From: Nitrosopumilus sp.
GTDB taxonomy: Archaea; Thermoproteota; Nitrososphaeria; Nitrososphaerales; Nitrosopumilaceae
Length of the DNA: 64,000 nucleotides
Assembly: GCA_965206745.1 (NCBI GenBank)
Contig: OZ242220.1
Location: forward strand, 1,568,001-1,632,000
Direction: 5' to 3'
The position numbers and the translations under genes were made by a program. Under the pieces are notes generated by a model. It ran no database searches. It saw only the letters and a list, made by a program, of their open reading frames with translations, and was not told where the DNA came from. Below, one piece after another: positions 19,201 through 60,894 of the stretch; position 1 is the stretch's first letter, and each line of letters begins with the position of its first letter.

Positions 19201-19247
19201 GGTTCGGGTCAAATGTTGCAAGCAGAATCATCATGTGTGGACAGAAC
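19201..19247 (+). repeat. Palindromic ~47-bp intergenic repeat, copy A
   Basis: GGTTCGGGTCAAATGTTGCAAGCAGAATCATCATGTGTGGACAGAAC; 32/36 identical to copy B. Confidence 0.8.
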
Positions 19248-19345
19248 AATATTCAAAATGGCAAATGACGGATTCTCTAATTTTATTGGTTTGAGATATA
19301 GAAGAGATTCAAAATCAATAAATGCTAGTATTACAATAATAAAAT

Positions 19346-19564
19346 ATGGAATCTGACAATAATCGAAAATTTACTATTATAGTTGAAAATGAGGATGATT
19401 GCTGGTATAGTGGTCAATGCTTGGAAGTTCGAGAAGCTACAAGTCAGGGCAGTTCATTAGATGAGTTAAAAAAGAATATGAAAGAGGCTATACAATTATC
19501 TTTAGAATATTTAGAAGACAAAGCCAGAAAAGAAAACAAAGAGATCATCGAGATCTCGGCATAG
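19346..19564 (+). CDS. hicB: HicB-family antitoxin (type II TA)
   Basis: FTIIVENEDDCWYSGQCLEVREATSQGSSLDELKKNMKEAIQLSLE, typical HicB partial RNase-H fold pattern. Confidence 0.85.
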   Translation: MESDNNRKFTIIVENEDDCWYSGQCLEVREATSQGSSLDELKKNMKEAIQLSLEYLEDKARKENKEIIEISA

Positions 19565-19600
19565 CCAAACCTTGAAAATCATAACTGGCGTGTTTGGTGA
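19565..19600 (+). pseudogene. Possible 5' stub of the cognate hicA toxin, cut off at repeat copy B
   Basis: Reads PNLENHNWRVW* straight after the hicB stop and ends immediately before the repeat. Identity as hicA is inferred mainly from position. Confidence 0.3.
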
Positions 19601-19601
19601 G

Positions 19602-19648
19602 AATTCGGGTCAAATGTTGTAATGAGAATCATCATCTGTAGAGCCTCA
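19602..19648 (+). repeat. Palindromic ~47-bp intergenic repeat, copy B
   Basis: AATTCGGGTCAAATGTTGTAATGAGAATCATCATCTGTAGAGCCTCA. Confidence 0.8.
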
Positions 19649-19682
19649 ATTTCTTATATGGCACCAGAACAATAATGCAAAC

Positions 19683-20183
19683 ATGACAAAGATTACGGCA
19701 TACATTGCATCTAGTCTGGACGGATTTGTTGCAAGAGAGGACGGCAGTGTCGACTGGCTCCCAGATACAGCCGGAACAGGATATGACGCATTTTACAAGT
19801 CAGTGGATACCGTGATTATGGGCAGGGTCACATATGAGCAGATTCTTACATTTGGAAAATACCCATACAAGGACAAAAAGTTACTTGTTTTTACCAAGAC
19901 CAGTCAGAGTAAAGAGGGTGTGGAGTTTGTCTCAGACGTTGAAAGTTTTGTGAGGACAGGCTTTCCCAATGCGGGGGAGAATATCTGGCTGGTTGGAGGG
20001 GCACAACTCTTCTCATCCTTTCTCAAGGAAGAGGCAGTCGATGAGATAATCATATCAGTCATTCCAGTCATCTTGGGCAAGGGAGTGCCCCTGTTTACTG
20101 GTATGAAAGAGATAGAGCTTGAACTGGTCAAGACCAAAGAATACGGGCAGCTGGCAGAGATACATTACAGGGTTTTAAGGTGA
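19683..20183 (+). CDS. Dihydrofolate reductase family protein (RibD C-terminal domain)
   Basis: YIASSLDGFVAREDGSVDWL, VIMGRVTYE, IWLVGGAQL, VDEIIISVIPVILGKGVPLF. Confidence 0.9.
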   Translation: MTKITAYIASSLDGFVAREDGSVDWLPDTAGTGYDAFYKSVDTVIMGRVTYEQILTFGKYPYKDKKLLVFTKTSQSKEGVEFVSDVESFVRTGFPNAGENIWLVGGAQLFSSFLKEEAVDEIIISVIPVILGKGVPLFTGMKEIELELVKTKEYGQLAEIHYRVLR

Positions 20184-20223
20184 TGTTTGATTTCAGAGAT
20201 CATTGGCAGAGTTCAGCTCAGGT

Positions 20224-20270
20224 GGCTTGAGTCAGATATGGTGATCAGAATCACCATCTGTACGCAGAAG
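20224..20270 (+). repeat. Palindromic ~47-bp intergenic repeat, copy C
   Basis: GGCTTGAGTCAGATATGGTGATCAGAATCACCATCTGTACGCAGAAG; core inverted repeat ATGGTGAT-CAGA-ATCACCAT. Confidence 0.75.
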
Positions 20271-20661
20271 GGTTATTTCACAGAGAATTGATCAATGCCA
20301 CACAGGTTCAATGAATTTGAGGAGAACTGAAACTTTGGCATATGCATCGGAGAAACCCGTGCCAGTATGACTGAGTAAAAAAATATAGGTGAGGCTTTTG
20401 TCTATTCGCCCTGATATTCATCATTGTTTGGATTCAATTGATCACTATGATTGTCGTTATCGGATTGTTTATCCATGATTTGCATTGGTTGGTTTAACTT
20501 AAAATGATTACGATCCAAAGCTCTGTCAATGTGAATCTATAAAGATGATCCAGACAGTATCTGGCAATCACAGCAGTTAATTTTCTGAGCACCATTTTGC
20601 TGCAAATAGAAAATATCTGTCAGAGTCACCAAGATACAAACCCGAATCCTGACTTGGCCTA

Positions 20662-23600
20662 TCAGCAGGTAGTAGTCATGTTGTATGCGCGTATCAGGTC
20701 CAGCGTATCGGCATACGAATCTGAGGACTCGTCAAGGGACTCGATTAATCCGCACACCTGCACCTGGTCGTACTGGGATATTTGCAGTGAGAGCTCCTGA
20801 AGCGGTGTCAGCTGTGCATCTGCCTCGATGATACTTCTAGATGGCAAAGGTTCCGTACCGAGATAAAAGTTGTCAAAGGACGTCTTTTTGCCCCAAGGGT
20901 ATATCCAGGGATCAGAAAGGTAGAGTTGTACCGTGATATCGTCTTGTCCTGATACGTACTGTGAAATGTCTTTACTAAATGTGCGCCATCCAGAATCAAG
21001 TGTGCCACCTGCAATCATGTATGTATTGTACAGGGAGTTGCCGTCAGTATCCGTTATTTGCAGTATGGCATTAGTTACTGTTGAAATAGTACCTAGTGAG
21101 GTTGCCCTGTAATCGACGCTGAGGTGCAGTGAATCATCCGGATCATGGTTCTCAAGGGAGATGTCTCTATTAATTCCGGCATCTGCTCCAAACCCGTTGC
21201 CTCTAATCAGGGCAGATGATGCGGGATTGCCGTCAGTTGCAGAGAGTTCAAGTATGTAATTGTTGTAACGCACGTGGCCTTGCCATGTGGGGGGACTGTG
21301 TATTGATTTGACAAACTCCCAGGAATCAAGGTTTGCAAAGTCATCAGTTATGCTTGCAAATATAGCGGCATCAATTGTAACTGAGAAGGAGTCCTGTACA
21401 AAGTTGTCGTTTGCATCAGTTGCAGTGCATGTGACTAGAGTGCTGCCGACAGGGAAAGAATCTCCCGAATCATGACTACACAGTATGGTGACTGGGAAGA
21501 CGTCAGTTACAGTCGGAGTTTCAAACTCGACAACATCACGATTCGCATGCGTCAGGGCGATATCATCTGGGAAACTGGTAAAGACGGGCTTTGTCGTATC
21601 CTGAACCCTCACAGTCTGGGTATCATTGGTAACATTATCTGAATCATCAGTTGCAGACCATGTAATAGTAGTCGAGCCTAGAGGGAAGGAGTCAGGGGCA
21701 TCATTGGTAACTGTAACATCAGAATCTACAATATCGCTGGCAGTCGCACTGCCAATATCCACGGGGGTTAATTCATCTGTAGCCTCTACAATGAGACTGT
21801 GAGGTACTGTAACTATTGGGCTTGTCGTGTCCCGTATGGTGACTGTCTGTATGGCAGTTGCCGTATTTCCAGAGATGTCCATGGCAGTCCACGTAACTCT
21901 AGTCTCACCTAGTGGAAAAGAGTCGGGGGAATCATTTGTTGCAGTTATGGTATCAATATTGTCTGTGACTGCTGCAGTTCCTATATCAACAAGAGTCAGC
22001 GCACCTGTGGCCTCGGCTATAACATCAGATGGCAGAATCAGCATGGGTTCTGTCGTATCCTGTATCGTCACTTTCTGGGTATCAGTTGCAGAATTATCAA
22101 AGAAATCAGTTGCAGTGTAGGTTACTATGGTGACACCAATTGGGAAGGAGGTCGGGGCATCGCTGGTGATGCGGGGTGTAGGATCAACTAGGTCAGTTGC
22201 AGTTGCGACACCCAGATCAATCATGGTAAGCAGGGTGTCAGTCTCGATGGTAATATCATCAGGGGCTGTAATGGTTGGATTTGTGCTATCATCAATGACT
22301 ACAATTTGGTCATATCGAGCCGTATTTCCGGAACTGTCTCGGGCAGTCCAGATGACAAAGGTTGCAGCAATTGGAAAAGAGTCAGGTGCGTTATTGGTAA
22401 CTGCAACATCAGGGTCTGCAATATCATGTGCAGTTACAGTGTCAATCTCAAGGGGGGTAAATCTTCCTGTGGCCTCTGCAAAGACGATGTTGGATGCCGG
22501 AATGTCAAAGTACGGGTCTGTAGTATCCCGTATGGTGACTGTCTGTATGGCAGTTACCGTGTTCTCAGAGATGTCAGTTGCAGTCCACGTCACCAGAGTG
22601 TCACCTACGGGGAAGGAGTCAGGCGCGTCATTTGTTGCAGTCAGGGTATCAATATTGTCTGTAACTGTCGCAGTTCCTATATCCACAGGGGTCTGTACAC
22701 CTGTGGCCTCTACGGTAACATCAGATGGCAGAACCAGCACAGGCTCTGTATCATTTATGGTTATCGTTTGCGTGGCAGTAACAGAGTTGCCAGAGTCATC
22801 AGTTGCAGTGTATGTCACTATGGTTATGCCGATTGGAAATGAGTTTGGGGCATTACTGGTAATAGTTGGCATTGCATCTACTGTATCTGTTGCAGTGGCT
22901 GCTCCCAGATGAATCATCGATATCAGGCTGGTGGCCTCAAGTGTGACATCACCTGGTGCCGTAATTACGGGATCTGTCGTATCCTGTATGAGAATGGTTT
23001 GCGTGTCATTTATGATGCCTCCTTTGTCGTCCCGGGCAGTCCATGTTATGATGGTGGTGCCAAGTGGAAACAGACCAGGTGCGTCATTTGTGACTGTGGC
23101 ATTACGGTTGATGGAGGCAGTGCCCAGATCAACTAGGGTCAGCTCCCCTGTAGCCTCCAGAGTCAGGCCATCAGGGGCGGTAATCTCCAGGGGTATGAAT
23201 TTGGTTATCGTAATGTCAAATGAGGCACTTGCCACATTGCCTGCCATATCCTGAGTTGTGCAAGTTACAATAGTGGTACCAAATGGGTGAATCACGCCGC
23301 TTGGAACATTGCATTCCACTGCAATTTGACCATCCAAGTTGTCAACTGCTGCCGGTCTGGTAAAAGGGACAACTGATGGACGGAGTAGATCCAGCACTAT
23401 ATCCTCAGGTACCTCTGATATTACAGGCTTTGCATCGTCCATTGTCTTTGCAATTAGTTGTACTGCATCAATCTGGATGGTGCCTTTATCCCCCTCAAGT
23501 AGCGGTGTTAATCTGAAGAAAAAGTCATTGCCTGCAAACTCGTCCAAGTTTACCGTAACTTGGAACCATCGCTGGTATGTCGACTGGCCCACGATTATAG

Positions 23601-24321: not shown

Positions 24322-24426
24322 CAATTAATTAGGATCACGTGGTATATAGATAATTCTAACCAGTTGCGATCTGCAAACTATTGGGATAAAATGTGAAATA
24401 ATTACCAAATAAAGTGCAATTTTTTG
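24322..24426 (-). promoter_or_regulatory. Promoter/upstream region of HYR protein 1, duplicated at 28391-28495
   Basis: caattaattaggat..c..ggtatatagata.ttct...cag.tgcgatctgcaa..ta...ggg.taaaatgtgaaataattac is shared by both paralogs and includes a TATA element. Confidence 0.7.
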
Positions 24427-24751
24427 AATTTTTCAATCCACAGTTGTCGCTCAGATGATGCAAAAATGGATTTTTGACAGTTATCGGTGCTGTACAAATC
24501 AATTTGGAGCTAGATAGGGTGATAATATGATCGTATGAATTTTAGATATACTTGGACTGCAATCAATAGGAAGAGACGTATGAGAGTATTACATTGATCT
24601 GAGGGATCAAAAGGTGACACAAAACAGGCATGTCTTTTGACTATCCATAGATGTCATAAGACATGTCAGATGAATGCAGGAATTCCAGATGATCACATTA
24701 TAAAATTAATAAAAAGATCAGCCCAAGTGCAAATCCTGACTTGCGTATCTA

Positions 24752-28390: not shown

Positions 28391-28495
28391 CAATTAATTA
28401 GGATTACATGGTATATAGATAGTTCTGATCAGCTGCGATCTGCAAGTTATCGGGGTAAAATGTGAAATAATTACAAGATAAAATATAATTTTTTG
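28391..28495 (-). promoter_or_regulatory. Promoter/upstream region of HYR protein 2 (duplicate)
   Basis: Colinear similarity to 24322-24426. Confidence 0.7.
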
Positions 28496-30486: not shown

Positions 30487-30676
30487 GGTTCTGTAACATT
30501 AACGGGGGCTAGGCACAAGTAGAAATATGGATCTTATTCCGATTCGCTGAGACCCAGTTACTGCATGTAAAACACCAAATACGGATCTTCGAATTCAAAA
30601 AAAACCCTTCAAATTTGAGATTTTATCAAGTTATCGAGTGTTTAGCACGAAATACGGATATGACTTCTCATAAAAT
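30487..30676 (+). repeat. Left end: TIR plus three subterminal AAATAYGGAT(CTT) repeats
   Basis: agaaatatggatctt (~30521), caaatacggatctt (~30576), gaaatacggata (~30649). Confidence 0.85.
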
Positions 30677-30716
30677 CAGTAAAGTCTAAATCAGGCTAAT
30701 AAAACACATTTGACAC

Positions 30717-32507
30717 ATGCAAGCAAATTATGCAAATATAGCAAAAAAAGGATTAGAGAAAAATCCATCTGAAGGTCAAGTAGAAAAAGATGTGTTATTA
30801 CCATTATTGGAATTAATAGGATATTCCAACATCAAATCCAAACCAACAATAACAACACAGGCAGGTAGAAAAAAACATAAAGGAACCCAAGCTGATTTGG
30901 TTGCATATCAAACTATTGATAAATTACCTACATTGGTAATAGATGCAAAATCACCTAAAGAAGGAATATCTCGGGCAGATCTGCCACAAGTGCAATCGTA
31001 TGCAATAAGTCCAGATATCAAACCTCGTGCAAAATTTGTAATGCTGTCCAGTGGATATGCAACACAAATTTATCCAATAAATTCTGAAGATCCTCTTTTT
31101 ACATCTGATTTACTCTCATTATTTGATAAAATTGAAGAAATTAGAAATATTTTGACTGGAAAAATTTCAACTACTTTAAAACTTGAACAAATTGATATAG
31201 ATAATTTTTTTAGAAATACTCATGATCTAATGTATAGTCAAGATACGATCAAACCTACCCAAGCTCTAATAATTATGACTAAACTAATGTTAATTAAAAT
31301 ACAAGAAGAAAAAGGATTAACAATATCTAGACTGGGATCTATTTTAGATCATAAAAAAAATTATTTTGATTCTACAAAATCATTAAAAGAAAGGAAAGAA
31401 ATTGAAGATAAAATACGAAGTTATGTTAACAACTTACTAACGCATATCAGTACAGATTTACTTCCTAAAGATGATAGATCTATAGGTAGTCACATCAGTA
31501 TGCCCGTTTTGTTTGAAATTGTTGATGGATTATCAAAACATCATATTGGTTCTGTAAAAGCAGATGTTCAAGGTCGTGCTTTTGAGGTATATCTTGGTAA
31601 AACAATGAAGGGAAGAGAACTTGGTCAATATTTTACGCCTAGACAAATTGTAGATTTTATGGTTGATGTAATAAATCCAAACTACAATGATTTAGTAATT
31701 GATCCTTCATGTGGAACAGGTGGTTTTTTAAAACAGGCTTTTTTAAAAATTAGTGATAATCTAGAAAAAGAAAAAATGATTATAGGAAAAGATGCATATA
31801 TAAAGAAAAGAGATTTTTTGCATAAGGAACAGATCTATGGAATAGATAAAGATCCTTTGGGTGTACAATTATCAATGATCAATATGTTCATGTGGGGCGA
31901 CAGTCATTCTCACATTCATAAACATGATGGGTTAATAGACAAAGACAATGAAATTGTTGAAGAGAAATTTAGCATAGTGTTAACTAATCCTCCGTTTGGA
32001 AGTGCATCTGATGTAAAAATTAAAGCCGATAAAATCCCATTGAATTATGATTTGGGTTACAAGTGGAAATTTAATTGTCAAACTAATCTTTATGAGAAAA
32101 CATCAGTAAAACAATCACAAGATGCAGGTATATTATTCTTAGAAAGATGTGTAAAACTTATTGCTCCTAATGGTAAAATAGGGATTGTATTACCGTCAGG
32201 GGTTTTTAACAATAAAACAACCGAATATGTGCGTCAATGGATACAACAGAATATTGATGTCAAATTAGTTGTTAGTTTACCAATTCATACTTTCAAACTA
32301 ACAAACGCTAATAATTTCACAAGTATTCTATTTGGAAAAAGAAAAATTAAACCTAATAACAATATACCAACATATGCTGTATCTATTGCTAATGACATAG
32401 GGTTTGATGATAAGGGAAATACAGTAGATAAGAATAATAATAAAATACATTCTGACTTGGGACAAATTAAAGACTTGTTTTTCAAAAAAGTTGGGTGGGA
32501 AAATTGA
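30717..32507 (+). CDS. Fused restriction endonuclease / N6-adenine methyltransferase (HSDR_N plus N6_Mtase; type IIB/IIG, BcgI-alpha-like)
   Basis: N-terminal ADLVAY...LVIDAKSP nuclease motif; LGQYFTPR, IDPSCGTGGFL (SAM binding), LTNPPFG (catalytic). Confidence 0.9.
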   Translation: MQANYANIAKKGLEKNPSEGQVEKDVLLPLLELIGYSNIKSKPTITTQAGRKKHKGTQADLVAYQTIDKLPTLVIDAKSPKEGISRADLPQVQSYAISPDIKPRAKFVMLSSGYATQIYPINSEDPLFTSDLLSLFDKIEEIRNILTGKISTTLKLEQIDIDNFFRNTHDLMYSQDTIKPTQALIIMTKLMLIKIQEEKGLTISRLGSILDHKKNYFDSTKSLKERKEIEDKIRSYVNNLLTHISTDLLPKDDRSIGSHISMPVLFEIVDGLSKHHIGSVKADVQGRAFEVYLGKTMKGRELGQYFTPRQIVDFMVDVINPNYNDLVIDPSCGTGGFLKQAFLKISDNLEKEKMIIGKDAYIKKRDFLHKEQIYGIDKDPLGVQLSMINMFMWGDSHSHIHKHDGLIDKDNEIVEEKFSIVLTNPPFGSASDVKIKADKIPLNYDLGYKWKFNCQTNLYEKTSVKQSQDAGILFLERCVKLIAPNGKIGIVLPSGVFNNKTTEYVRQWIQQNIDVKLVVSLPIHTFKLTNANNFTSILFGKRKIKPNNNIPTYAVSIANDIGFDDKGNTVDKNNNKIHSDLGQIKDLFFKKVGWEN

Positions 32508-33958
32508 GTAGAGAATTAGTATTTGTTATATCGAAACCCACATTTCTTTATGAAAAAATGGATGCAAATTTCCTTCATCCAGAAAGAATAGAAACTATCA
32601 AAAAATTACAAGATATGGAAAAAAATGGAATAATTGAAATGAAACAATTAACGAAAATTGTAAAAAATATTAAAAAAAGGAGTCCTGAAAATGAAAAAAT
32701 AATATTGCCATGCATAGAATTAGCAGATATTCAACGTGATTATGGTCTCATTAATGTAAAACAGAGAACCATTAAAGATGCTGGAACATCTACAATATTC
32801 TGTGAAGGCAACAATATTTTGTTTTCGCGTTTGAGACCATACTTGAACAAAGTTGCATTAATTCCACCATCTATCAAACAAGCAATATGTTCAGGAGAAT
32901 TTTTTGTTTTTTCTAGAATAGACAAAACAATTCCTTTAGGTTATCTTTGGTTAGTATTACGATCTAATTTTATATTGAATCAAAGTATTCATTTGCCAAC
33001 TGGTTCATTACGCCCACGCATAGATGAAGATGATCTAAGTGACATAATAGTACCGCTTATTGTAGATAAAAAAAGGATTAAGGAGATTGATACACTTGTA
33101 CAAAAAGGACTTGGCGATTATTTTTCTGCTTCGAAAAATCTTAATACAGTAGAATCAAATTATTATAATTCAATTTCATTACCACCTCTATCAAAACCCC
33201 CAAAATTATTTTTTGCCATGTCAAATCTACCATCTGATTGTAAAAGACCATCCTATAGAATGGATCCATTATTCTTTCACTCACATTATTACGATAATTT
33301 GAAGCAAATCTTACATAAATGGGCAAAAGATCAAAGTGGTGAAATAAAAGAATTAGAGGATTTAGCAATTTCTATTGTAAGATGGAAATCTAAAGTTAGA
33401 GGTAAGATAGGCTCAACACCTAGATTAGGAGTTACTAACGTTACTAATCGAGATATTTTATGGGATTGTGATTATGTGGATGTGGAATTTCATCAAAATA
33501 ATTTTATGTTGCAGAAAAATGACTTATTGATTAGTTCTACAGGAATAGGTTCTACATGTAAAGTAGAAATTTATGATGAAAAACAACCAGCTATAACCGA
33601 TGGACATATAACAATTATACGACTAAAACCAGACATTGATCCTTATTTCTTGTTAGTTTATTTACGTTCTGAATATGGACAGAGACAATTAGCAAGAATG
33701 GAACGTGGTACAAGTGGTCAAATTGAAATTTATGCAGATGATGTAAAAAAACTATTGGTACCTTTTCATAAAAATAAAAAATTCATTTCCAAGGCTAAAC
33801 AAGAAATAAAAAATATGTCAAGCACAATTATTAATGCAAAAAAGAAATTGAATGAAGCAATGTATTTACTTGATGCATCATTTAAGAATGAAAAACCCAT
33901 AGATTTCAAAAAATTAGATACAGCTATTCCTAAAAAAGAATGGAGAATTTCACGATAA
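32495..33958 (+). CDS. hsdS: Restriction-modification specificity (S) subunit with two TRDs
   Basis: ILFSRLRPYLNKVALI...CSGEFFV, YRMDPLFF, NDLLISSTGIGS...GHITIIR...PYFLLVYLRS..GQ.Q; overlaps the RM gene stop. Confidence 0.85.
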   Translation: MGKLSRELVFVISKPTFLYEKMDANFLHPERIETIKKLQDMEKNGIIEMKQLTKIVKNIKKRSPENEKIILPCIELADIQRDYGLINVKQRTIKDAGTSTIFCEGNNILFSRLRPYLNKVALIPPSIKQAICSGEFFVFSRIDKTIPLGYLWLVLRSNFILNQSIHLPTGSLRPRIDEDDLSDIIVPLIVDKKRIKEIDTLVQKGLGDYFSASKNLNTVESNYYNSISLPPLSKPPKLFFAMSNLPSDCKRPSYRMDPLFFHSHYYDNLKQILHKWAKDQSGEIKELEDLAISIVRWKSKVRGKIGSTPRLGVTNVTNRDILWDCDYVDVEFHQNNFMLQKNDLLISSTGIGSTCKVEIYDEKQPAITDGHITIIRLKPDIDPYFLLVYLRSEYGQRQLARMERGTSGQIEIYADDVKKLLVPFHKNKKFISKAKQEIKNMSSTIINAKKKLNEAMYLLDASFKNEKPIDFKKLDTAIPKKEWRISR

Positions 33959-34011
33959 ATATTGCATTGAGAAATTGCTACGTGTCTTCACTTTCTCGTG
34001 GGCATTTTTAA

Positions 34012-34058
34012 GGCTCTGATCAAATATGGTAATCAGATCACCGTTTGTGACCCGAACC
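34012..34058 (+). repeat. Palindromic ~47-bp intergenic repeat, copy D (inside the IS6 element, just after the R-M cargo)
   Basis: GGCTCTGATCAAATATGGTAATC-A-GATCACCGTTTGTGACCCGAACC; 34/38 identical to copy G. Confidence 0.85.
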
Positions 34059-34084
34059 AGTAGATAAAATATCAGTTAACTTGT

Positions 34085-34255
34085 TCATATTCCGCTCTTC
34101 ACGATAATCTTTTTCCCATCTATTACAAACTGAACAGAGTCAGGGTTATCCAAAAATTCCAATATGGGTTTTGGTACTCTGCAAATTGTACTATGCCTTC
34201 CATCATCAGACAGTTTTACAGAAAATATGGTTTCATCTTTTTTCCAGCGTGTCAA
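34085..34255 (-). CDS. Small AbrB/MazE-like DNA-binding protein (56 aa, not in ORF track), divergent from the transposase
   Basis: TTG start; (M)TRWKKDETIFSVKLSDDGRHSTICRVPKPILEFLDNPDSVQFVIDGKKIIVKSGI, swapped-hairpin-like xPKxI...V.F...G.KI.V pattern. Confidence 0.65.
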   Translation of the reverse strand: MTRWKKDETIFSVKLSDDGRHSTICRVPKPILEFLDNPDSVQFVIDGKKIIVKSGI

Positions 34256-34355
34256 CAATTCAACGAATATTCAATATTATAAAAATTAACCGATCGCTTA
34301 GTTTTGCATACGGTTAACAGTAAGCATTAAATAAGCATACGGATAATATAACTAC

Positions 34356-34499
34356 ATGAAGCAAAGAGCGAGACAAACAATGAAGAAGACAAAAAATTCA
34401 GAGGGAAATTCACTCCCAATGATGAATCTGGCGTTACCCGAGTTCTTGAATCTCTTTGCTTTTTCCACTTTATTAATTTTCAAGAGGTCTTACGCATGA
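34356..34499 (+). CDS. 47-aa leader ORF translationally coupled to the transposase
   Basis: MKQRARQTMKKTKNSEGNSLPMMNLALPEFLNLFAFSTLLIFKRSYA; its stop overlaps the transposase ATG (ATGA); TATA-like ttaaata at ~34327. Confidence 0.4.
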   Translation: MKQRARQTMKKTKNSEGNSLPMMNLALPEFLNLFAFSTLLIFKRSYA

Positions 34500-35629
34500 A
34501 CAAAAGAGCTCGAAGAGCAAATCAGATCATGGAACTGCCAAACTTATTTGTCATACTCAGGAAAGGGGAGTATCAGGTAAGATCACAGTTTAATCATGAT
34601 TTATCCTACATTGTAAAAAGCACAGGTTTGGGTCTGGTGTGTGAGTGTCCAGATCACCAAAGACGAAGGTCCGACTGCAAGCACATCAAGGTGGTTCTAT
34701 GTCACATCAAGGAAAACAAGATTGAAAACAATGCCTTTAGAATGATGGAGAGAAACGAGGTAAAAATATGCAGATACTGTGATTCTGGAAACATCAAGAA
34801 AAATGGTATTGCAAGAAACAAATTAAGAAATATTCAGATGTTCAAATGCAGAGATTGTGGTAAGAAATTCCGAGATAATCTTGGATTTGAGAGAATGAGG
34901 CATGATCCAACTGTTATAATTCAAAGTATAAGAAAATTGAACTCAAAAATGTCCACAAGGGCAATAGCAGATGATTTTGAGCAGGACAATAGGACTCTAT
35001 CTCATATGAGTGTGTATCGCTGGATAGGAAAATATTCTAATCTGATATTTGATTATGCAAGAACAATAACCCCAAGACTATCTGAAAAATGGAGAACTGA
35101 TGAATTGTACGCAAAATTCAGCGGTAAGGGAAAATGGGTCTATACCATGATGGATGATGAAACCCGATTCATGATTTCCCAACAAATTTCAGATACAAAA
35201 TATACAGAAGATGTAACCCCCATGTTTAGGGATGCGAGTAAATGGGCAGGTATGATTCCCCATACTTTGATTTCTGATGGAGCTCCAAACTTTCACAACA
35301 TATGGAAATTGGAATGGAGACAAAAAAATCAATATCGAAAACTGACTTCACATATTCGTCATATTCATCTTGCAGGAGATATGAACAATAACAAGATGGA
35401 AAGACTGAATGGAACAATGAGGGATTGGGAACAAACCAGACGAGGTCTGAAAAAGATGAATAGTCCCATGTTCAAGGGATTTATGATTTTTTATAATTTT
35501 GTCAAGAAACATGGGGGACTGGATGGAAAAACACCGGCAGAAGAAGCCTTGATTCACGTTATTGGGAAAAATAAATTACTGACCCTGATTCAAAATGCAA
35601 GTTTGGAGAAAAGCAGAAATGCCTTTTAG
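34496..35629 (+). CDS. tnp: IS6-family (IS240-type DDE) transposase with N-terminal SWIM and zinc-ribbon domains
   Basis: CECPD...CKH (SWIM); CRYC...CRDC; SHMSVYRWI (HTH); WRTDELY...WVYTMMD...ISDG...NNNKMERLNGT (DDE). Confidence 0.92.
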   Translation: MNKRARRANQIMELPNLFVILRKGEYQVRSQFNHDLSYIVKSTGLGLVCECPDHQRRRSDCKHIKVVLCHIKENKIENNAFRMMERNEVKICRYCDSGNIKKNGIARNKLRNIQMFKCRDCGKKFRDNLGFERMRHDPTVIIQSIRKLNSKMSTRAIADDFEQDNRTLSHMSVYRWIGKYSNLIFDYARTITPRLSEKWRTDELYAKFSGKGKWVYTMMDDETRFMISQQISDTKYTEDVTPMFRDASKWAGMIPHTLISDGAPNFHNIWKLEWRQKNQYRKLTSHIRHIHLAGDMNNNKMERLNGTMRDWEQTRRGLKKMNSPMFKGFMIFYNFVKKHGGLDGKTPAEEALIHVIGKNKLLTLIQNASLEKSRNAF

Positions 35630-35870
35630 ATGTCGAATTTGCCTCATAGGCTATGATGATAGTCAGAAGGCAGATAGCCTGGTGGTCATGGGAATTCTAA
35701 CTCACAGATGCAAGGAGTGTGTGAGAACAGGCAACACAGAAGCAAATACAACTCATTGTAGATTTTGTGATGAAAAACACAATAATCTACAAGATTTTGA
35801 TTGTGGAGAGAATATTGTACCTCTTTGTAAGAGATGTTATGATGAAGAAACCGTGAAACTTGGAAAATAA
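35619..35870 (+). CDS. Small zinc-finger protein with four CxxC motifs
   Basis: MPFRCRIC...CKEC...CRFC...CKRC; overlaps the transposase stop. Confidence 0.65.
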   Translation: MPFRCRICLIGYDDSQKADSLVVMGILTHRCKECVRTGNTEANTTHCRFCDEKHNNLQDFDCGENIVPLCKRCYDEETVKLGK

Positions 35871-35894
35871 TTAATTCTTGTTTGAGAATCGATT

Positions 35895-36093
35895 TGAGGC
35901 AAGATCCGTGTTTGCAGAACCAGTCTCATCTCATATCAACTTGACAGAAAATCCTCGATTTTAGGATTTTTTGAATTAGAAGAAGATCCGTATTTGGTGT
36001 TTTACATGCCATGAGTTGATTAATTCAAGGATTTGAATTGGAATAAGATCCGTATTTCTACTCATGTCTAGCCCCCGTTAATGTTACAGAACC
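35895..36093 (-). repeat. Right end: three inverted subterminal repeats plus TIR
   Basis: aagatccgtgttt (~35901), aagatccgtatttggtgttttacatgc (~35983), aagatccgtatttcta (~36045). Confidence 0.85.
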
Positions 36094-38616: not shown

Positions 38617-38661
38617 TGTCTTATGCAAAATGATGATCAGATTATCAAAATATACTAAATC
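38617..38661 (-). repeat. Degenerate copy F of the ~47-bp palindromic repeat
   Basis: Core AAATGATGATCAGATTATCAAAAT matches the reverse complement of copy E at 22/24. Confidence 0.6.
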
Positions 38662-38726
38662 GATATGAATTTAATTTCTTCTGCATATAAAAATAACATT
38701 ATATTTGAACAATACCATGTTTTTGC

Positions 38727-54522: not shown

Positions 54523-54569
54523 GACCATACTCACAAACGGGGATCTGATCACTATATTTGAGCAGAGCT
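54523..54569 (-). repeat. Palindromic ~47-bp intergenic repeat, copy G
   Basis: Reverse complement AGCTCTGCTCAAATATAGTGATCAGATCCCCGTTTGTGAG; 34/38 identical to copy D. Confidence 0.85.
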
Positions 54570-54706
54570 GGTAAAAATAATCATGCACATTCATTTCCAT
54601 CAAGATTTGATGTATAATGGCTATTCATGCCACCTGTATTTTTCTATCATGGGCAGTTTCTAGCTGTTGATCATAACCTAAACTTTGATAATGTCTATAG
54701 TTCCAA

Positions 54707-55304: not shown

Positions 55305-55601
55305 GATTTTAAATTTTGACCTCCAAGATATATTTTAAATAACAATAATCTATTATTGAATAACTACTATAAAATATTATATTTTATTATATTTTATTAT
55401 TATTCAATAATTATTTAGTATCTCAGAGTAAAGAATTGTATGAGGGCTAACAACTCAAAAAACTAGGCATGGAAATATTTTCGACAATGGTAATTCGTGC
55501 CTAACCAAAAGAAAGTAGCGATCTCATACGTTTTGTCTCTCTGAAAATACAGATTCCCAAATGGAACTCTAGTACACGCATACATCTAAGGACGGAAAAT
55601 A

Positions 55602-56441: not shown

Positions 56442-56469
56442 GTATAACGGAAAGAGCTTGGTACAATAC

Positions 56470-56583
56470 ATGAGCAAAAATGTTCAATCAGCATCCCGTG
56501 CTGGAAAAGGAAAAGGAGGAAAACCTTCTGGCACAGGCAAGCCCTCTGGTGGCGGACGAGACAACAATCCACTAGGAAAATAA
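56470..56583 (+). CDS. 37-aa Gly/Lys-rich micropeptide
   Basis: MSKNVQSASRAGKGKGGKPSGTGKPSGGGRDNNPLGK; followed directly by a strong terminator. Confidence 0.65.
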   Translation: MSKNVQSASRAGKGKGGKPSGTGKPSGGGRDNNPLGK

Positions 56584-56591
56584 GCCCATAT

Positions 56592-56625
56592 CCTGCTAGG
56601 ATTATTCCTAGCAGGGCTTTTTTTT
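56592..56625 (+). terminator. Intrinsic terminator (10-bp stem plus T8)
   Basis: cctgctagga-ttat-tcctagcagg-gc-tttttttt. Confidence 0.8.
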
Positions 56626-56832
56626 AATTTGTAGCAGATCAACTGTACTGTAAACTCGTGACTGAAATTATCAGTAATGATTTGCAGATGGAAATCTAAT
56701 TGGATTTGCTCCCAAGATAGTTAGTATGAGTCAGAACAAGATTCAGTATTTCAAGTCCAAGACTGCACAGGACCTAGATTTTTGATTGCAAGTCTATTCG
56801 TGGATTCTGAGATACGCTAGATGATTTTGATA

Positions 56833-58641
56833 TTATCTTAACCACCAAAACCAATCAAATTTAGATAATGCAGGTGTGGAATCAGATTTGGAATGAGTAT
56901 TTTGTTTTTGAAATTTTGTATTTTGAATCTTCTTGAGAATATCATCTAAATGTGTTTTTTCAGAAATAATTTTCTTGGTTAATTTAGAATTTACATCATC
57001 TGCTCTAAAGTCAGATAGATGATTAAGGCAAATAGTTAGTTCGTCTAATATATCAAAAGATATGTTTTGGAATTGATAAAAATCTAAATCAGAATTCCAT
57101 AAAAGTTTCAATTTGTCATTTTTGACTATATTTTCTTCAAGAAAATTGTCTATGGGTGTTGAAAATGTCTTAGTTAATGCAAGGATTAGTTCTGGTGGGG
57201 CATCATTACAAAATACAGGATTTGGATAAATTTCATGGACAAGTTTTTTAATATGTTTTAAATTATCTAAAGAAGATATTGTCAAGTTAATTCTAGTGAG
57301 AATATTTTCTAATAATTCAAAATTATTGTTAATACATAATTTTATCACCATTTGGATCTTTTTTTCATAATTAATGTTTGGAAAATCCTCTAGTTTCAAA
57401 AATTTTATAATTTGAGGATTTAACCTCTTTGTAGTTATAAAAATTTTAAAAATATTTTCTTGATATTTAGAACGTGAACCGGCAACTTCATCCAGAAATT
57501 TGACTCCTTTTTCTTTAACCTCGTTCTTTCTTTTATTGAGAATATTCTTCAATACCTTATTTATTAAATAAGGATCTTGTTTTTCTACCTGCTTTAAAAT
57601 ATTTTCAATTGGATACAAGCCCAAATGGTAATCTTCTGTACTTTGAAGCAGTTGCTCAGTATTAATTTTTGCAAGTAATTTGGGATTTCTTGGATCTCCC
57701 GCATATTTTTTTGCGTTATTGAGATACACGGATGCTGATTTCAAATGCAGTTTACTTGCAGCTTTTGCACATTCCAAGTAATATCTTGCTTTTTTTGTCG
57801 ATTCAGTTGTTTGTTTTGAAAGATTTTCATAATTTAATAATTTAAATTTGTCAAATTTAGATTCTCCTTCAATTTTATTAAATTCTGTATTGAATTCATG
57901 AATTTTGGATTTATTTTTTGTATAAATAATATGTGAAAAGTATGTTACATCTTTGAATCTAATATATGAGTCATCTTTGTTTGAAAATCCAACCACGGTC
58001 CATCGTTTATCTGTAAGATCAATTTTATCATAAGGAATTTGAATAAAATCATATGTAGTTTGTCTTTTTGTATCTGTAACCAGTGTTGAAAATGAAAGTA
58101 ATCTCATAGGCATAGGCAATGCAACTAAAAGATTTTGAATGGCAGATATTGACTCAATATTAGCATAAGCAATTTTTTTCTTTGAAATTATCCCATGAAA
58201 AATTTTATTCAAAATCCCTTCTGAAATTCCAGAAAAAGCACTAAAATCAATTGGGACAGGTGAAGACTTGATTTGTATGGGTTCTAATTTTCCAGATAAA
58301 TTAGAATCTTCTATAAAATAATTATCAAATATTCTTGAATCATTTTCAATTTTTTCAAAATCTTCTTTATCAAAAATAAACGTGTGATTGTACAACGTTC
58401 CACGTCTAGCATCATAACCGACGCCGATATTTTTAATGATGCTATAAGCAATTTTATTCTTGAAAATTAATTGAGAACGTGATTCTTGAAATTTTTCTAA
58501 ATTTGTTCCAATTGGATAATAATATCCTGATAGTTCAGAAAGTATCTCATTTGAAATGCCGTTGCTTTTTGCTATAATTTGATAACCTTCTTTTTCATCA
58601 GTCTTTGCCGACGTATAAATAAAATGATCACATGAAAACAA
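56833..58641 (-). CDS. GAP1-N2-like domain protein (GTPase-associated protein 1) with helical C-terminus
   Basis: HFIYTSA....GYQIIAKS.GI...IGVGYDARRGTLYNHTFI resembles the GAP1-N2 pattern; 2-bp gap after the GTPase gene. Confidence 0.7.
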   Translation of the reverse strand: MFSCDHFIYTSAKTDEKEGYQIIAKSNGISNEILSELSGYYYPIGTNLEKFQESRSQLIFKNKIAYSIIKNIGVGYDARRGTLYNHTFIFDKEDFEKIENDSRIFDNYFIEDSNLSGKLEPIQIKSSPVPIDFSAFSGISEGILNKIFHGIISKKKIAYANIESISAIQNLLVALPMPMRLLSFSTLVTDTKRQTTYDFIQIPYDKIDLTDKRWTVVGFSNKDDSYIRFKDVTYFSHIIYTKNKSKIHEFNTEFNKIEGESKFDKFKLLNYENLSKQTTESTKKARYYLECAKAASKLHLKSASVYLNNAKKYAGDPRNPKLLAKINTEQLLQSTEDYHLGLYPIENILKQVEKQDPYLINKVLKNILNKRKNEVKEKGVKFLDEVAGSRSKYQENIFKIFITTKRLNPQIIKFLKLEDFPNINYEKKIQMVIKLCINNNFELLENILTRINLTISSLDNLKHIKKLVHEIYPNPVFCNDAPPELILALTKTFSTPIDNFLEENIVKNDKLKLLWNSDLDFYQFQNISFDILDELTICLNHLSDFRADDVNSKLTKKIISEKTHLDDILKKIQNTKFQKQNTHSKSDSTPALSKFDWFWWLR

Positions 58642-58643
58642 GA

Positions 58644-59636
58644 TTAGTCATTTAGGTTTTCATCTAACCATGAAATAAATTTAACATATTCATCTTCGCT
58701 GTAGGACAACGGTATTTTGACTTTATACGTAAATTCTTGTTTTTTTACTTCTGAAGTGCCAGCTGGTGGAGTAATTAAAGTAGGCTTTCCAGAACGTGTA
58801 GAAGCCTTTGCATTGTATAGAGAAGGATATGGAGTGCCTGATTCTATCTTAATTTTAATTGGTTTATTATCTGAACCACGTTCCACATCCAGATATACCT
58901 TAAAAAATCCAACATCTTTTGTAACCATTCCTTTCATGTGACGATAAAATTCTGGCATGTGTTTTTTTAGTAAATCTTCTGCAGTCAGTATTCTATTTTT
59001 TTCATCAAGAAGATCAGTTTTTGTGAACATGATTGCAATTGGATTGTTAATTTTACCATCCTTTGATTCATTGATTGATTGTTTTAATGCAAGAATTTTA
59101 TTAAGTAAAATCATATTATCAAAAGATTGGTCTTTCCACAATTCGATCTTTTGACAATCAATTAAGAGGACATATACTTTCGAAAAAATCAGAAATGAGT
59201 AAGGGCTAAATTTAGTACCTTTCTGTTTTTCATAATTGATAATTCTAGTAGCTAATGAGGAGGCATCCATCTCATTAGTAAAAAAATAATCATTTAATTC
59301 TCCTGCAAAATCATTTAATCTAAGTTCAATTTCACCACCACTTGCTTTCTTTTGTTTAAGAATCATTTGAACTTGTTTGATTTCGGATTCTGCAGTCTTT
59401 TCTGGAAATTTCCCTCCTTTTAATGACATACTGTTTGCTTTCATATGTTCAATTCCATTTTTTATTCTAAAATCATATTCTGGATGATCTTCAAGAAATT
59501 TGTTAATTATTGTATCAAGTAATAAAGCTCCAACGATTGTTTTGCCAGTTTTTAGAGAACCAAGAATTGAAATAATTTTTTGGTTTTCAAATGATTTTTT
59601 AGCAATATCCAAAGAAGATATATTTTCTTTACTCAA
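58644..59636 (-). CDS. TRAFAC-class P-loop GTPase of the GTPase/GAP1 conflict-system type
   Basis: IISILGSLKTGKT (G1), FPEKT (G2), LNDFAGE (G3), LLID, IMFTKTDLL (G4). Confidence 0.85.
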   Translation of the reverse strand: MSKENISSLDIAKKSFENQKIISILGSLKTGKTIVGALLLDTIINKFLEDHPEYDFRIKNGIEHMKANSMSLKGGKFPEKTAESEIKQVQMILKQKKASGGEIELRLNDFAGELNDYFFTNEMDASSLATRIINYEKQKGTKFSPYSFLIFSKVYVLLIDCQKIELWKDQSFDNMILLNKILALKQSINESKDGKINNPIAIMFTKTDLLDEKNRILTAEDLLKKHMPEFYRHMKGMVTKDVGFFKVYLDVERGSDNKPIKIKIESGTPYPSLYNAKASTRSGKPTLITPPAGTSEVKKQEFTYKVKIPLSYSEDEYVKFISWLDENLND

Positions 59637-59674
59637 ACAATATCAATTCCATTATGTGTTTAATAAGGATTAAT

Positions 59675-60664
59675 TTATTTGCTTATCATTTCTCTGTATT
59701 TTGCTATGTCTCGAACATAGAAACTTTTGCTTTTTTTATCCTGATTATCAGTAATTGCGATACTGATACGAATCACCCCTACTCCATCATATTTTTTTCC
59801 AAATCTTGAAGGTGCAGGATTCGCTTTCTCATATTCTACAAATGCATTAGTGCCTTTTATGATGGCATCATCAATTTGTTTTATCGTAGAATATCCTAAT
59901 TCTTTCAATTGCTGAGTAATTTCTAAAATTGACGATGGTATAGATTCAGGTCGACTAGTAAATTTTTGTTTGATATATTGAGTTAACGGTTCTAATTTGC
60001 AAGGTTGACCAAGAAGATCTTCACCGATATCAATTTTTAATTTTTGCTCTTGTGAATTATAATATGTGTCAAATCTTTGATCAACAAAAAAGAATAAACT
60101 ACTAATTGCATACATTTCTCTACGGAAATTTTCATTTAATTCAACTTTTTTGTATAGAGTATCATGTGAAACATTAGCCCATGCATGCATTAATTCAGTT
60201 CGTATTTGGATTTCACATTGAGTTTTCAATATATCTGGCCAAAGAAACAGATCTGATTTTGAAACAGAATTATTTGATAATTTGAGAATATAATGATCAG
60301 ATCGATAGCCGGATTCACTTACTCTTTCAGAAAAACTATGTTGTTTTTTTTGAATTACATTGAAGTTATCTTCAATTAATTTATCAATTTCTTCCAACTC
60401 TGAATAATACAAACAAATTACACGAATTCCAATAAAATCTTCCATATTGATGAAATAATTATTATTTATTTGCTTACGTATAATTTTATTATAAAATGAT
60501 TCAAAACTTTTTATTCTTTTTCGTAAATTAAAATTTTTAATATTTGTTAAACCAATTTTAGCAGTAAGAATTTCTTCAACTTTATTCATAGCTGGTTCGA
60601 ATATTTTTTTTTGTTGATTATATTCATCATTCAGAGATTGTTCATCTGGAGCACTAAAACCCAT
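59675..60664 (-). CDS. RelA/SpoT-domain nucleotidyltransferase (small alarmone synthetase-like)
   Basis: RIKSFESFYNKI...MEDFIGIRVIC...GYRSDHYI...CEIQIRTELMHAWANVSHDTLYK. Confidence 0.88.
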   Translation of the reverse strand: MGFSAPDEQSLNDEYNQQKKIFEPAMNKVEEILTAKIGLTNIKNFNLRKRIKSFESFYNKIIRKQINNNYFINMEDFIGIRVICLYYSELEEIDKLIEDNFNVIQKKQHSFSERVSESGYRSDHYILKLSNNSVSKSDLFLWPDILKTQCEIQIRTELMHAWANVSHDTLYKKVELNENFRREMYAISSLFFFVDQRFDTYYNSQEQKLKIDIGEDLLGQPCKLEPLTQYIKQKFTSRPESIPSSILEITQQLKELGYSTIKQIDDAIIKGTNAFVEYEKANPAPSRFGKKYDGVGVIRISIAITDNQDKKSKSFYVRDIAKYREMISK

Positions 60665-60714
60665 ATATTTTTCAATAGTGCCAATTTTTTAAATTTATCT
60701 TTTTTCGATATTAC

Positions 60715-60843
60715 TGTGTTTATGAGAACATGATATATGGATCTTATTTCAACTCAAAAAAACTCGCTCACCCTAGAATTTCTATCAAAAGGATTAACTT
60801 GTCGTGTGTTAAACACTAGATACAGATCCTCTTCTGATTCAAT
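60715..60843 (+). repeat. Relic of the IS6-element subterminal region (two repeats) without TIR
   Basis: Colinear with 30571-30676: atatatggatcttatttcaactcaaaaaaa...tatcaa...ttgtcgtgtgttaaacactagatacagatcctcttctgattcaat. Confidence 0.7.
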
Positions 60844-60847
60844 TACT

Positions 60848-60894
60848 GATTCTGGGAGATTTTGGTGATCTGATCATCATTTGTGACCAGAGCC
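60848..60894 (+). repeat. Palindromic ~47-bp intergenic repeat, copy E
   Basis: GATTCTGGGAGATTTTGGTGATC-T-GATCATCATTTGTGACCAGAGCC. Confidence 0.8.

What the first reader, a model, noticed from the sequence alone, without database searches (positions are those of the whole stretch)
19201..60894. A dispersed ~47-bp palindromic site brackets single cargo genes: candidate cassette recombination site (attC/pdif-like) in an archaeal defence island
Seen: at least 7 copies at 19201, 19602, 20224, 34012, 38617(-), 54523(-) and 60848. Approximate consensus is GGYTCKGRTCAAATATGGTRATC-W-GATCAYCRTTTGTGACCMGARCC, an imperfect inverted repeat with offset unpaired bases. All copies are intergenic. Copies A-B-C form a direct array: [A] hicB [B] DHFR-like gene [C]. 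The hicB unit is visibly AT-richer than its flanks, and its presumed hicA partner stops right at copy B. Copy D sits between the R-M cargo and the core genes of the IS6 element. Inference: these are recombination or insertion sites that delimit one- or two-gene modules, like integron attC or Acinetobacter pdif sites. No integrase is visible in the window, so the enzyme could be the IS6-type transposase or a host tyrosine recombinase.
Basis: partly seen in the sequence, partly recalled or inferred. Interest (0 to 1): 0.85.

Follow-up and report, generated by a model that had tools for sequence, protein, structure and literature searches.

The report
Tiny IS6-type palindromic mobile element
The repeated 47-base palindrome is a miniature transposon made only of two IS6-type end repeats; in this group of ammonia-oxidising archaea, pairs of it can carry single genes around, so it is not an integron-like recombination site.

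Summary
The repeat is real. Six of the seven window copies are solid and copy E is degenerate. The genome holds 41 significant copies, none in coding sequence, and 24 lie in 10% of the chromosome.

It is not attC- or pdif-like. The 99.6%-complete genome has no tyrosine or serine recombinase, RAYT or TnpB. The arms show no compensatory changes, and most copies no longer fold.

Each 23-bp arm follows the IS6/IS26 terminal-repeat motif (GG tip, CTGnT, CAAA), with the tips facing outward. The same 23+1+23 design occurs in 17 of 100 other sampled genomes of the genus, in up to 43 arm hits per genome.

In relatives, two gene-carrying pairs of palindromes have 8/8 and 7/8 target duplications, and one solitary copy has a perfect 8-bp duplication. 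The G000 copies are old (mean pairwise identity 72%) and show no duplications.

The arrays at 1.686 and 1.705 Mb are tandem paralogue duplications. A-hicB-B-DHFR-C is a local subfamily.

Best reading: an IS6-derived, repeat-only MITE that forms small composite transposons. The mobilising transposase was not identified. The window's IS6-like transposase is the only candidate in this genome.

The recombination-site analogy is not.

The parts
19201..19248 (+). Palindrome copy A. It belongs to a local subfamily with an extra A at the centre.
   Evidence: nhmmer E 8.9e-9; sequence
19346..19564 (+). 72-aa ORF between A and B, a weak HicB-like antitoxin hit. The unit has 31.9% GC.
   Evidence: Pfam PF15919 E 0.0042, below cut-off; GC
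19603..19645 (+). Palindrome copy B. It is the closest relative of A, and its right outer arm is disrupted.
   Evidence: nhmmer E 1.7e-5; alignments
19683..20183 (+). 166-aa RibD_C/DHFR-like gene between B and C.
   Evidence: Pfam PF01872 4.3e-16, PF00186 7.6e-9. Homologues in G015 and G012 sit elsewhere and have no palindromes beside them.
20224..20269 (+). Palindrome copy C. It is the only window copy that still folds well.
   Evidence: nhmmer E 3.4e-9; DNA fold z -3.4; present with 2 differences in run X4
30487..36093 (+). 5.6-kb IS6-like transposon. It has imperfect ~130-bp terminal repeats that start GGTTCTGTAAC and is flanked by the 8-bp duplication TTATTTTC. It carries R-M genes (30717-33958), copy D and the transposase.
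   Evidence: ends and duplication
34012..34058 (+). Palindrome copy D, inside the transposon between the R-M cargo and the transposase gene.
   Evidence: nhmmer E 4.7e-15. The related strain in run X4 appears to have the IS without the R-M genes and without D: there is a joint 34460/36036 and no depth over 31007-33674. This is inferred.
34496..35629 (+). 377-aa DDE transposase (DDE_Tnp_IS240/rve). It is the only IS6-type transposase in the genome.
   Evidence: single genome hit for PF00665 and PF13610; the family occurs in 207 of 401 sampled genomes of the order
38617..38663 (-). Copy E, a degenerate relic. The central GATCAGAT region is kept and the outer arms are lost.
   Evidence: E 0.11 with the refined profile; sequence
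54524..54569 (-). Palindrome copy F. Its right outer arm is degenerate.
   Evidence: nhmmer E 5.6e-11
60848..60894 (+). Palindrome copy G. Its left arm is diverged.
   Evidence: nhmmer E 8.7e-12

Best explanation
The 47-bp palindrome is a miniature non-autonomous transposable element (MITE). It consists only of two 23-bp IS6/IS26-type terminal inverted repeats, with tips outward and one base between them. The two arms differ at a few fixed inner positions, so the element has an orientation.

A DDE transposase supplied in trans cuts at the GG tips and inserts the element with an 8-bp target duplication. Two copies can move the gene or genes between them as a small composite transposon.

Direct arrays such as A-hicB-B-DHFR-C arise secondarily. 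Possible routes are IS26-like cointegrate or translocatable-unit events, or ordinary duplication and unequal recombination between copies.

Shown:
- The family exists and has a patchy distribution across the genus.
- The arms carry the IS6 terminal-repeat motif.
- Three 8-bp duplications occur in relatives.
- Gene-bracketing pairs and arrays occur in several genomes.

Inferred:
- Which transposase acts on it. The window's IS6-like enzyme is the only candidate in G000.
- How direct arrays form.
- That most G000 copies are old relics and no longer move.
For: 1. Arm motif. The arms read GGCTCTGGTCAAATA.. and GGCTCTGGTCACAAAT... Relatives have GGTTCTGGTGCAAAATGGTGATC. The IS6-family repeats are described as a GG tip plus cTGTt plus caaa (PMC7986276, passages). 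Printed examples are GGCTCTGTTGCAAA for IS6100 (PMC10470526) and TGGTTCTGTTGCAAAGT for an IS431-like element (PMC10581047).

2. Distribution. The same 23+1+23 design occurs in 17 of 100 other sampled genomes of the genus, with controls near 0. Arm hits: G521 43, G002 35, G501 30, G518 28. The copies sit in unrelated contexts. A patchy distribution with lineage-specific expansions is typical of a mobile element.

3. Target duplications in relatives.
- G521 PAL-231-aa ORF-PAL is flanked by GCGCCTGA on both sides (8/8).
- G521 PAL-3 ORFs-PAL is flanked by ATTTGTAC/GTTTGTAC (7/8).
- These are 2 of 10 adjacent pairs examined. Both units lie between genes whose G000 orthologues are neighbours.
- One of 20 solitary copies (G225:1309930) is flanked by a perfect CCCTTGAT.

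4. Link to IS ends. Six G000 copies are fused at a fixed junction to a ~57-bp IS-end-derived repeat that begins GGTTCTGTAATC. A seventh lies in the 860-bp insertion at 1,371 kb. G306 holds a 1261-bp IS and one 50-bp palindrome made of that IS's two ends.

5. Related full elements. Those carrying the 377-aa transposase family have GGTTCTGT.. ends and 8-bp duplications.

6. No hairpin selection. 72.3% of cells pair, but 424 of 500 shuffles do at least as well.

7. No other candidate enzyme. No tyrosine recombinase, serine recombinase, RAYT or TnpB was found.
Against: - No G000 copy shows a target duplication. 0 of 38 reach 6/8 at zero offset (null 0.16), and the mean is 2.05 matches against 2.12 for the null. 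None of 15 adjacent G000 pairs has outer duplications.
- In relatives only 3 of 30 tests (10 pairs and 20 solitary copies) are positive.
- No full-length IS whose ends equal the arms was found. Six transposase loci in palindrome-rich genomes lack arm-type ends within about 2 kb. Ten palindrome loci in relatives lack this transposase family within 1-3.5 kb.
- The window transposase's own ends (GGTTCTGTAACATTAAC..) match the arms only over the first 7 bases.
- The transposase family is also multi-copy in genomes without palindromes, such as G067, G256 and G017.
- An 8-bp duplication is not unique to IS6.
- The arms have CTGGT where the family motif has CTGTT.
Confidence: 0.6

Rival explanations
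1. Cassette recombination site (attC- or pdif-like). A site-specific recombinase exchanges one- or two-gene cassettes at the palindrome.
For: - Direct array A-hicB-B-DHFR-C lies in an AT-rich island.
- A G521 array holds unrelated cargo: protease, GNAT and DprA.
- Half copies end exactly at the centre at 1705891 and 1709754.
- An LL-type copy (1303716) and an RR-type copy (1339995) exist, and the palindrome is flipped relative to one paralogous flank.
Against: - No Phage_integrase or Resolvase hit in a 99.6%-complete genome; the controls ring in 14 of 14 and 12 of 14 reference genomes.
- No covariation.
- 5 of 6 window copies do not fold better than shuffles.
- The element has constant length and conserved sequence, unlike attC.
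- The two centre-truncated copies are duplicates of a single event.
- Target duplications in relatives point to transposition.
Confidence: 0.06
2. Binding site of a host protein (operator or nucleoid protein), or a two-way transcription stop, spread passively.
For: - The conserved symmetric core GTGATCWGATCAC and the termini are kept across species while the mid-arms vary.
- All copies are intergenic.
- Slightly more copies lie near 3' ends: 14 against 10.6+/-2.8.
Against: - Absent from 83 of 100 sampled genomes of the genus.
- No fixed distance to start codons, and fewer copies near 5' ends than random: 8 against 13.3+/-2.8.
- Not positionally conserved between species.
- No Rfam family matches.
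Confidence: 0.12
3. A repeat that is not itself mobile, multiplied only by segmental duplication and gene conversion in a flexible region.
For: - The arrays at 1686-1688 kb and 1705-1712 kb are tandem paralogue duplications (small membrane proteins and serpins) that carry the palindrome.
- A, B and C share private changes.
- No target duplications in G000.
Against: - 28 loci more than 5 kb apart have unrelated flanks.
- Insertions relative to relatives occur at 203 kb (+190 bp) and 1371 kb (+860 bp) inside conserved gene order.
- Target duplications occur in relatives.
Confidence: 0.15
4. REP-like element mobilised by a RAYT (HUH) transposase.
For: It is a short, dispersed, intergenic, imperfect palindrome.
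Against: - No Y1_Tnp hit in the genome.
- No hairpin conservation.
- 8-bp duplications in relatives are not a RAYT signature (based on general knowledge of REP/RAYT systems, not tested here).
Confidence: 0.02

Closest known systems
IS6/IS26-family MITEs (two are listed in ISfinder, 227 and 336 bp; MITEBth2 and MITEHarch3)
   Same: Non-autonomous. The ends follow the IS6 terminal-repeat motif, and the target duplication is 8 bp (PMC7986276 passages; PMC6807381 passages).
   Different: - Only 47 bp, with no internal sequence at all between the two repeats.
- Found in ammonia-oxidising archaea.
- CTGGT in place of CTGTT.
- Most copies lack duplications.
- No parent IS was identified.
IS26/IS6100 pseudo-compound transposons and translocatable units
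   Same: Directly repeated copies bracket cargo genes in arrays. Flanking duplications are frequently absent. An example is IS6100-hp-erm(56)-IS6100, which has a circular form (PMC10470526 passages; PMC7986276).
   Different: Here the bracketing units are 47-bp repeat-only elements without a transposase gene. The two units in G521 that do have duplications are bracketed by inverted copies, not direct ones. No circular forms were seen.
Integron attC sites / archaeal integrons
   Same: An imperfect palindrome lies just outside small cargo ORFs, and arrays share one orientation (bioRxiv 10.1101/2022.02.06.479319; seen only in the search listing).
   Different: No IntI. The sequence, not the structure, is conserved. 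The length is fixed. Transposition-type duplications occur in relatives.
Acinetobacter pdif modules (XerC/XerD)
   Same: Short sites flank one- or two-gene modules, including toxin-antitoxin genes. This comparison is recalled, not read here.
   Different: No Xer-type recombinase in the genome. There is no 11-6-11 architecture.
Hairpin-centred, IS6-related MITEs noted by this scan in a Woesearchaeota genome (e1-1108877)
   Same: Short archaeal intergenic palindromes that were read as IS6-type MITEs.
   Different: Different DNA and a different phylum. That family was reported with covarying stems; this one has none. Not checked here.

Membership tests
IS6/IS26-family derived MITE | Terminal inverted repeats with a GG tip and cTGTt and caaa motifs | tested here: met
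   Arms read GGCTCTGGTCAAATA / GGCTCTGGTCACAAAT; relatives have GGTTCTGGTGCAAAAT. Compared with the motif and printed repeats. One deviation: G replaces T after CTG in most copies. G002 copies have CTGTT.
IS6/IS26-family derived MITE | 8-bp direct target duplication | tested here: inconclusive
   Met in 3 cases in relatives: G521 8/8 and 7/8 among 10 pairs, and G225 8/8 among 20 solitary copies. Not met in any of 38 G000 copies or 15 adjacent G000 pairs.
IS6/IS26-family derived MITE | A cognate IS6-type DDE transposase available in trans, with matching ends | tested here: inconclusive
   G000 has one PF13610/PF00665 transposase. Its own ends share only GGTTCTG with the arms. No IS with arm-type ends was found around 6 transposase loci.
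IS6/IS26-family derived MITE | No coding capacity, multicopy, intergenic | tested here: met
   47 bp; 41 copies; 0 of 41 in coding sequence
Integron attC | IntI-type tyrosine recombinase in the genome | tested here: not met
   PF00589: 0 hits in G000; the controls ring in 14 of 14
Integron attC | Conserved folded structure with variable sequence and length | tested here: not met
   No covariation: 424 of 500 shuffles are at least as paired. Only 1 of 6 window copies folds with z below -2. The length is fixed at 47 bp.
pdif module | XerC/XerD-type recombinases and 28-bp 11-6-11 sites | tested here: not met
   No Phage_integrase hit. The site is 23+1+23.
REP/RAYT | RAYT (Y1 HUH transposase) present | tested here: not met
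   PF01797: 0 hits
IS26-like pseudo-compound transposon / translocatable unit | Circular unit with one element copy, and insertion next to an existing copy | not testable with these tools
   Only assembled contigs of public runs were available, and they drop rare forms.

The most novel reading that the evidence does not exclude
In this genus of ammonia-oxidising archaea, repeat-only 47-bp IS6-type elements act as portable transposon ends. Any gene that comes to lie between two of them becomes a mobile one- or two-gene module that an IS6-like DDE transposase moves in trans. This would be a cassette-like gene-shuffling system built on transposition rather than site-specific recombination. It would seed flexible islands with defence, toxin-antitoxin and other accessory genes.
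Probability: 0.35. Interest if true: 0.65.

Novelty: new variant of a known kind. Interest (0 to 1): 0.5.

Why it matters
Mobile elements of ammonia-oxidising archaea are poorly charted.

What the literature searches found:
- A survey of integrated elements in Thaumarchaeota lists IS families but does not use the word MITE (PMC6563490, term search).
- A 2024 review of prokaryotic MITEs names no member of this phylum among its archaeal examples (PMC10969869, passages).
- No paper in the held library combines 'miniature inverted' with 'Nitrosopumil'.
- Supplementary tables of these papers could not be opened and might list such repeats.

A 47-bp element made only of two IS6-type repeats would be far shorter than the two IS6 MITEs in ISfinder (227 and 336 bp).

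If pairs of it really ferry single genes, that explains how small accessory modules enter otherwise conserved gene order in these streamlined genomes. It also gives a simple marker for flexible islands.

Tried and rejected
- Right-half pattern in 40 relatives: 0 hits. I first read this as 'species-specific'. That was wrong, because the pattern was too strict. The architecture pattern later found the family in 17 of 100 genomes of the genus.
- Exact-pattern scans of viral, genome and metagenome contigs gave only single chance matches without a full palindrome.
- Terminal repeats of the window transposon compared with the arms: only the first 7 bases agree.
- Internal palindromes in six related IS elements: none alike.
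- Pattern GGYTCTG-N25-45-CAGARCC across 120 genomes of the family: background level, apart from single abutted-end palindromes in G306 and G201.
- Arm-type ends around six transposase copies of palindrome-rich genomes: none.
- Empty-site search for the G521 composite: the closest genomes are only 77% identical and the intergenic region is not alignable.
- Orthologous-site comparisons in G000: palindromes often sit where gene content differs from relatives. However, intergenic length differences are also common at junctions without palindromes, so this is not specific.
- Public runs: no RNA holder is listed.
- Contigs of X1 show a minor variant with skips at 19565-19634 and 20249-20270 'between: not known'. 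These cannot be told apart from divergent sequence.
- Rfam: no family in the window.
- Earlier scan notes by sequence and by place: nothing.
- My regex palindrome finder failed; I used the positions instead.
Full report
**1. Observation**

I read all seven sites. A profile built from them and iterated once on the whole 1.86-Mb genome gives 41 loci at E<1e-3. The window is G000:C1:1568001-1632000. Of the 41 loci, 38 are full length and 3 are half copies.

- Six window copies are significant. Copy E (38617-38663) keeps only the centre and scores E=0.11.
- The consensus is GGCTCTGGTCAAATAYRGTGATC-A-GATCACCATTTGTGACCAGAGCC.
- It is a 23+1+23 palindrome with two fixed mismatched positions, 12:37 and 14:35, unpaired in 36 and 30 of 38 copies. 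These give it an orientation.
- With my own crude gene caller (1992 calls), 0 of 41 centres are in coding sequence, which makes up 85.7%.
- 24 of 41 lie in C1:1.587-1.772 Mb, which is 9.95% of the genome (P 2.5e-14). Counting only loci more than 5 kb apart, the figure is 13 of 28 (P 8e-7).
- Copies are not promoter-locked. Eight have a 5' end within 80 bp, against 13.3+/-2.8 for random intergenic points. Fourteen have a 3' end within 80 bp, against 10.6+/-2.8.
- Mean pairwise identity of the 38 copies is 72%, range 50-91.5%. The family in this genome is therefore old.

**2. Not a structured recombination site**

Across the 38 copies, 72.3% of arm cells pair, but 424 of 500 column shuffles do at least as well. 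Compensatory changes are not enriched. The symmetry belongs to the ancestral sequence and decays independently in each arm.

Folded as single-stranded DNA, only copy C of six window copies beats shuffles (z -3.4). The others have z from -1.4 to +1.1. Two near-consensus copies elsewhere fold well, with z -6.8 and -3.1.

The genome is 99.6% complete and gives no hit for the following families:
- Phage_integrase
- Resolvase
- Y1_Tnp/RAYT
- the TnpB zinc-ribbon domain

The only transposase genes are the 377-aa DDE_Tnp_IS240/rve protein in the window and a DDE_Tnp_1 fragment at C1:1757813-1758190. Rfam finds nothing in the window.

**3. What the 'arrays' in G000 are**

- The five copies at 1686-1688 kb separate tandem paralogues of a ~90-112-aa two-helix membrane protein. 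The same gene-plus-palindrome unit recurs at 1707, 1711 and 1771 kb.
- The copies at 1705-1712 kb follow, 37 bp after the stop codon, a tandem array of five serpin paralogues that are 70-82% identical. The two half copies there are duplicates of one event.
- A, B and C share private changes: an extra A at the centre, and ATCTGT/ATGTGT. A and B may share some flank as well (ambiguous). They are local derivatives of one another.
- The window stretch 12000-21000 has no conserved gene order in the five closest genomes. Only the DHFR-like gene has homologues, and these lie elsewhere without palindromes.

**4. Link to IS6**

The window transposase lies in a 5607-bp transposon at window 30487-36093. 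It has ~130-bp imperfect terminal repeats that begin GGTTCTGTAAC, and an 8-bp duplication TTATTTTC. It carries R-M genes and copy D.

The transposase family occurs in 207 of 401 sampled genomes of the order. That tally includes G000 and three genomes flagged as unpublished. Complete copies in G052, G067 and others have GGTTCTGT.. ends. One copy each in G052 and G067 has an 8-bp duplication, CAAGATTA and AAATTAAC; their sister copies have none.

The literature describes IS6-family ends as a GG tip plus cTGTt and caaa motifs, with 8-bp duplications. It lists only two MITEs, of 227 and 336 bp (PMC7986276, passages). Printed repeats are GGCTCTGTTGCAAA for IS6100 (PMC10470526) and TGGTTCTGTTGCAAAGT for an IS431-like element (PMC10581047). 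The palindrome arms fit this motif with their tips facing outward. The palindrome is therefore a left end plus a right end with nothing between them.

Six G000 copies are fused at one fixed junction to a ~57-bp repeat derived from an IS end, which starts GGTTCTGTAATC. G306 holds a 1261-bp IS and one 50-bp palindrome built from that IS's two ends.

**5. The family is genus-wide**

My first search, with a right-half pattern, found nothing in 40 relatives. Exact scans of public contig collections found only chance hits.

An arm pattern then hit G002 (19 arms), G018, G225 and others. An architecture pattern, GGYTCTG-N10-RTGATCWGATCAY at up to 2 mismatches, hits 17 of 100 other sampled genomes of the genus. 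Controls are 0, apart from single hits in two genomes. Arm hits per genome: G521 43, G002 35, G501 30, G518 28, G225 8, G007 6.

- The plus and minus hits lie 17 bases apart, which means full 47-bp palindromes.
- The termini (GGTTCTGG) and the core (GTGATCWGATCAC) are conserved. The middle of the arms differs between lineages and between the two arms.
- The flanking contexts are unrelated.

**6. Evidence of transposition in relatives**

- In G521, PAL-231-aa ORF-PAL is flanked by GCGCCTGA on both sides. It lies between orthologues of G000 genes 58182-58646 and 59442-59702.
- Also in G521, PAL-three ORFs-PAL is flanked by ATTTGTAC/GTTTGTAC. It lies between orthologues of G000 genes that are neighbours in G000.
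- These are 2 of 10 adjacent pairs examined. In both, the palindromes are inverted and the same arm type faces outward.
- Of 20 solitary copies from G518, G521, G225, G007 and G504, one (G225:1309930) is flanked by a perfect CCCTTGAT.
- A G521 array of four direct copies plus a fifth carries a ClpP-like protease, a GNAT and a DprA gene.

In G000, no copy or pair shows a duplication.

G000 does have insertions relative to relatives inside conserved gene order:
- +190 bp at 203 kb.
- +860 bp at 1371 kb. Two genes that are 13-18 bp apart in G012 and G017 are separated here by a left-arm half, an IS-end fragment, a full palindrome, two small ORFs (homologous to a unit elsewhere in G017) and a second left-arm half.
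- At 813 kb, relatives have a ~250-aa gene where G000 has only the palindrome.

Length differences are also common at junctions without palindromes, so coincidence with breakpoints is not specific.

**7. What remains open**

- No IS with arm-type ends was found.
- The transposase family is also abundant in genomes without palindromes.
- One G052 palindrome sits ~110 bp upstream of an unrelated HTH+rve transposase.
- Public runs gave only contigs. A minor variant in X1 differs at B and C, but the skipped parts may simply be divergent.
- The related strain in X4 keeps copy C. It appears to carry the IS without the R-M genes and without D (inferred).
- Flip and flop orientations on one paralogous flank, and the LL and RR copies, show recombination or conversion between arms. 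They do not identify an enzyme.

**8. Verdict**

This is an IS6-derived, repeat-only MITE family of the genus. It is expanded and mostly fossil in this genome, and it can form small gene-carrying composite transposons. The attC/pdif mechanism is not supported.

I found no description of MITEs in this archaeal group. This scan earlier read IS6-type MITEs in a Woesearchaeota genome (e1-1108877); I did not check that note.

Noticed in passing
window 30487-36093: An intact-looking 5.6-kb IS6-like transposon with an 8-bp duplication TTATTTTC. It carries an N6-methylase/Eco57I-type R-M gene pair as cargo (30% GC). A related strain in run X4 seems to have the IS without this cargo.
   Followed up: partly
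G000:C1:1704014-1713589 (also 151501, 223505, 227298): A tandem array of five serpin paralogues (437-577 aa, 70-82% identical), plus three more copies elsewhere. This is an unusual serpin expansion for an archaeon.
   Followed up: partly
G000:C1:1686682-1688354, 1707868, 1711553, 1771388: A family of ~90-112-aa proteins with two hydrophobic helices and conserved PFCY / C-WEI motifs. They have no Pfam hit and are multiplied in tandem together with the palindrome.
   Followed up: partly
G000:C1:115363-115738: One IS-end-plus-palindrome composite (106 bp) is flanked by 134-bp direct repeats that are 95.5% identical. This is far longer than any normal target duplication and is unexplained.
   Followed up: no
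whole genome G000: No tyrosine recombinase of any kind was detected in a 99.6%-complete genome, so no XerA-type enzyme either.
   Followed up: partly
window 20662-28393: Two adjacent ~1215-aa proteins with 8-9 HYR domains each, ~76% identical at DNA level over long stretches. Public-run contigs show many alternative joints between them.
   Followed up: no
G000:C1:200137-201672, 1688514-1690163, 1699587-1701152: Three paralogues of a ~510-550-aa signal-peptide protein without a Pfam hit, found only in G000 among the genomes searched by DNA. Each lies next to a palindrome region.
   Followed up: no
G002:C1:1471786, 1474646, 708592, 1207520: In G002, the same left arm (GGCTCTGTTCAAATATGGTGATCT) is followed by a different shared sequence (..GYTCAAAAGWG..) instead of the right arm. 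This suggests a second, longer element type. One copy directly follows an IS6-like end.
   Followed up: no
window 59675-60664: A 329-aa protein with a RelA_SpoT domain lies beside copy G in the flexible region.
   Followed up: no
window 19001-20700 in run X1: A second, related strain is present at about one eighth of the main depth (~66 against ~500). It is collinear over hicB and DHFR but differs at copies B and C.
   Followed up: partly
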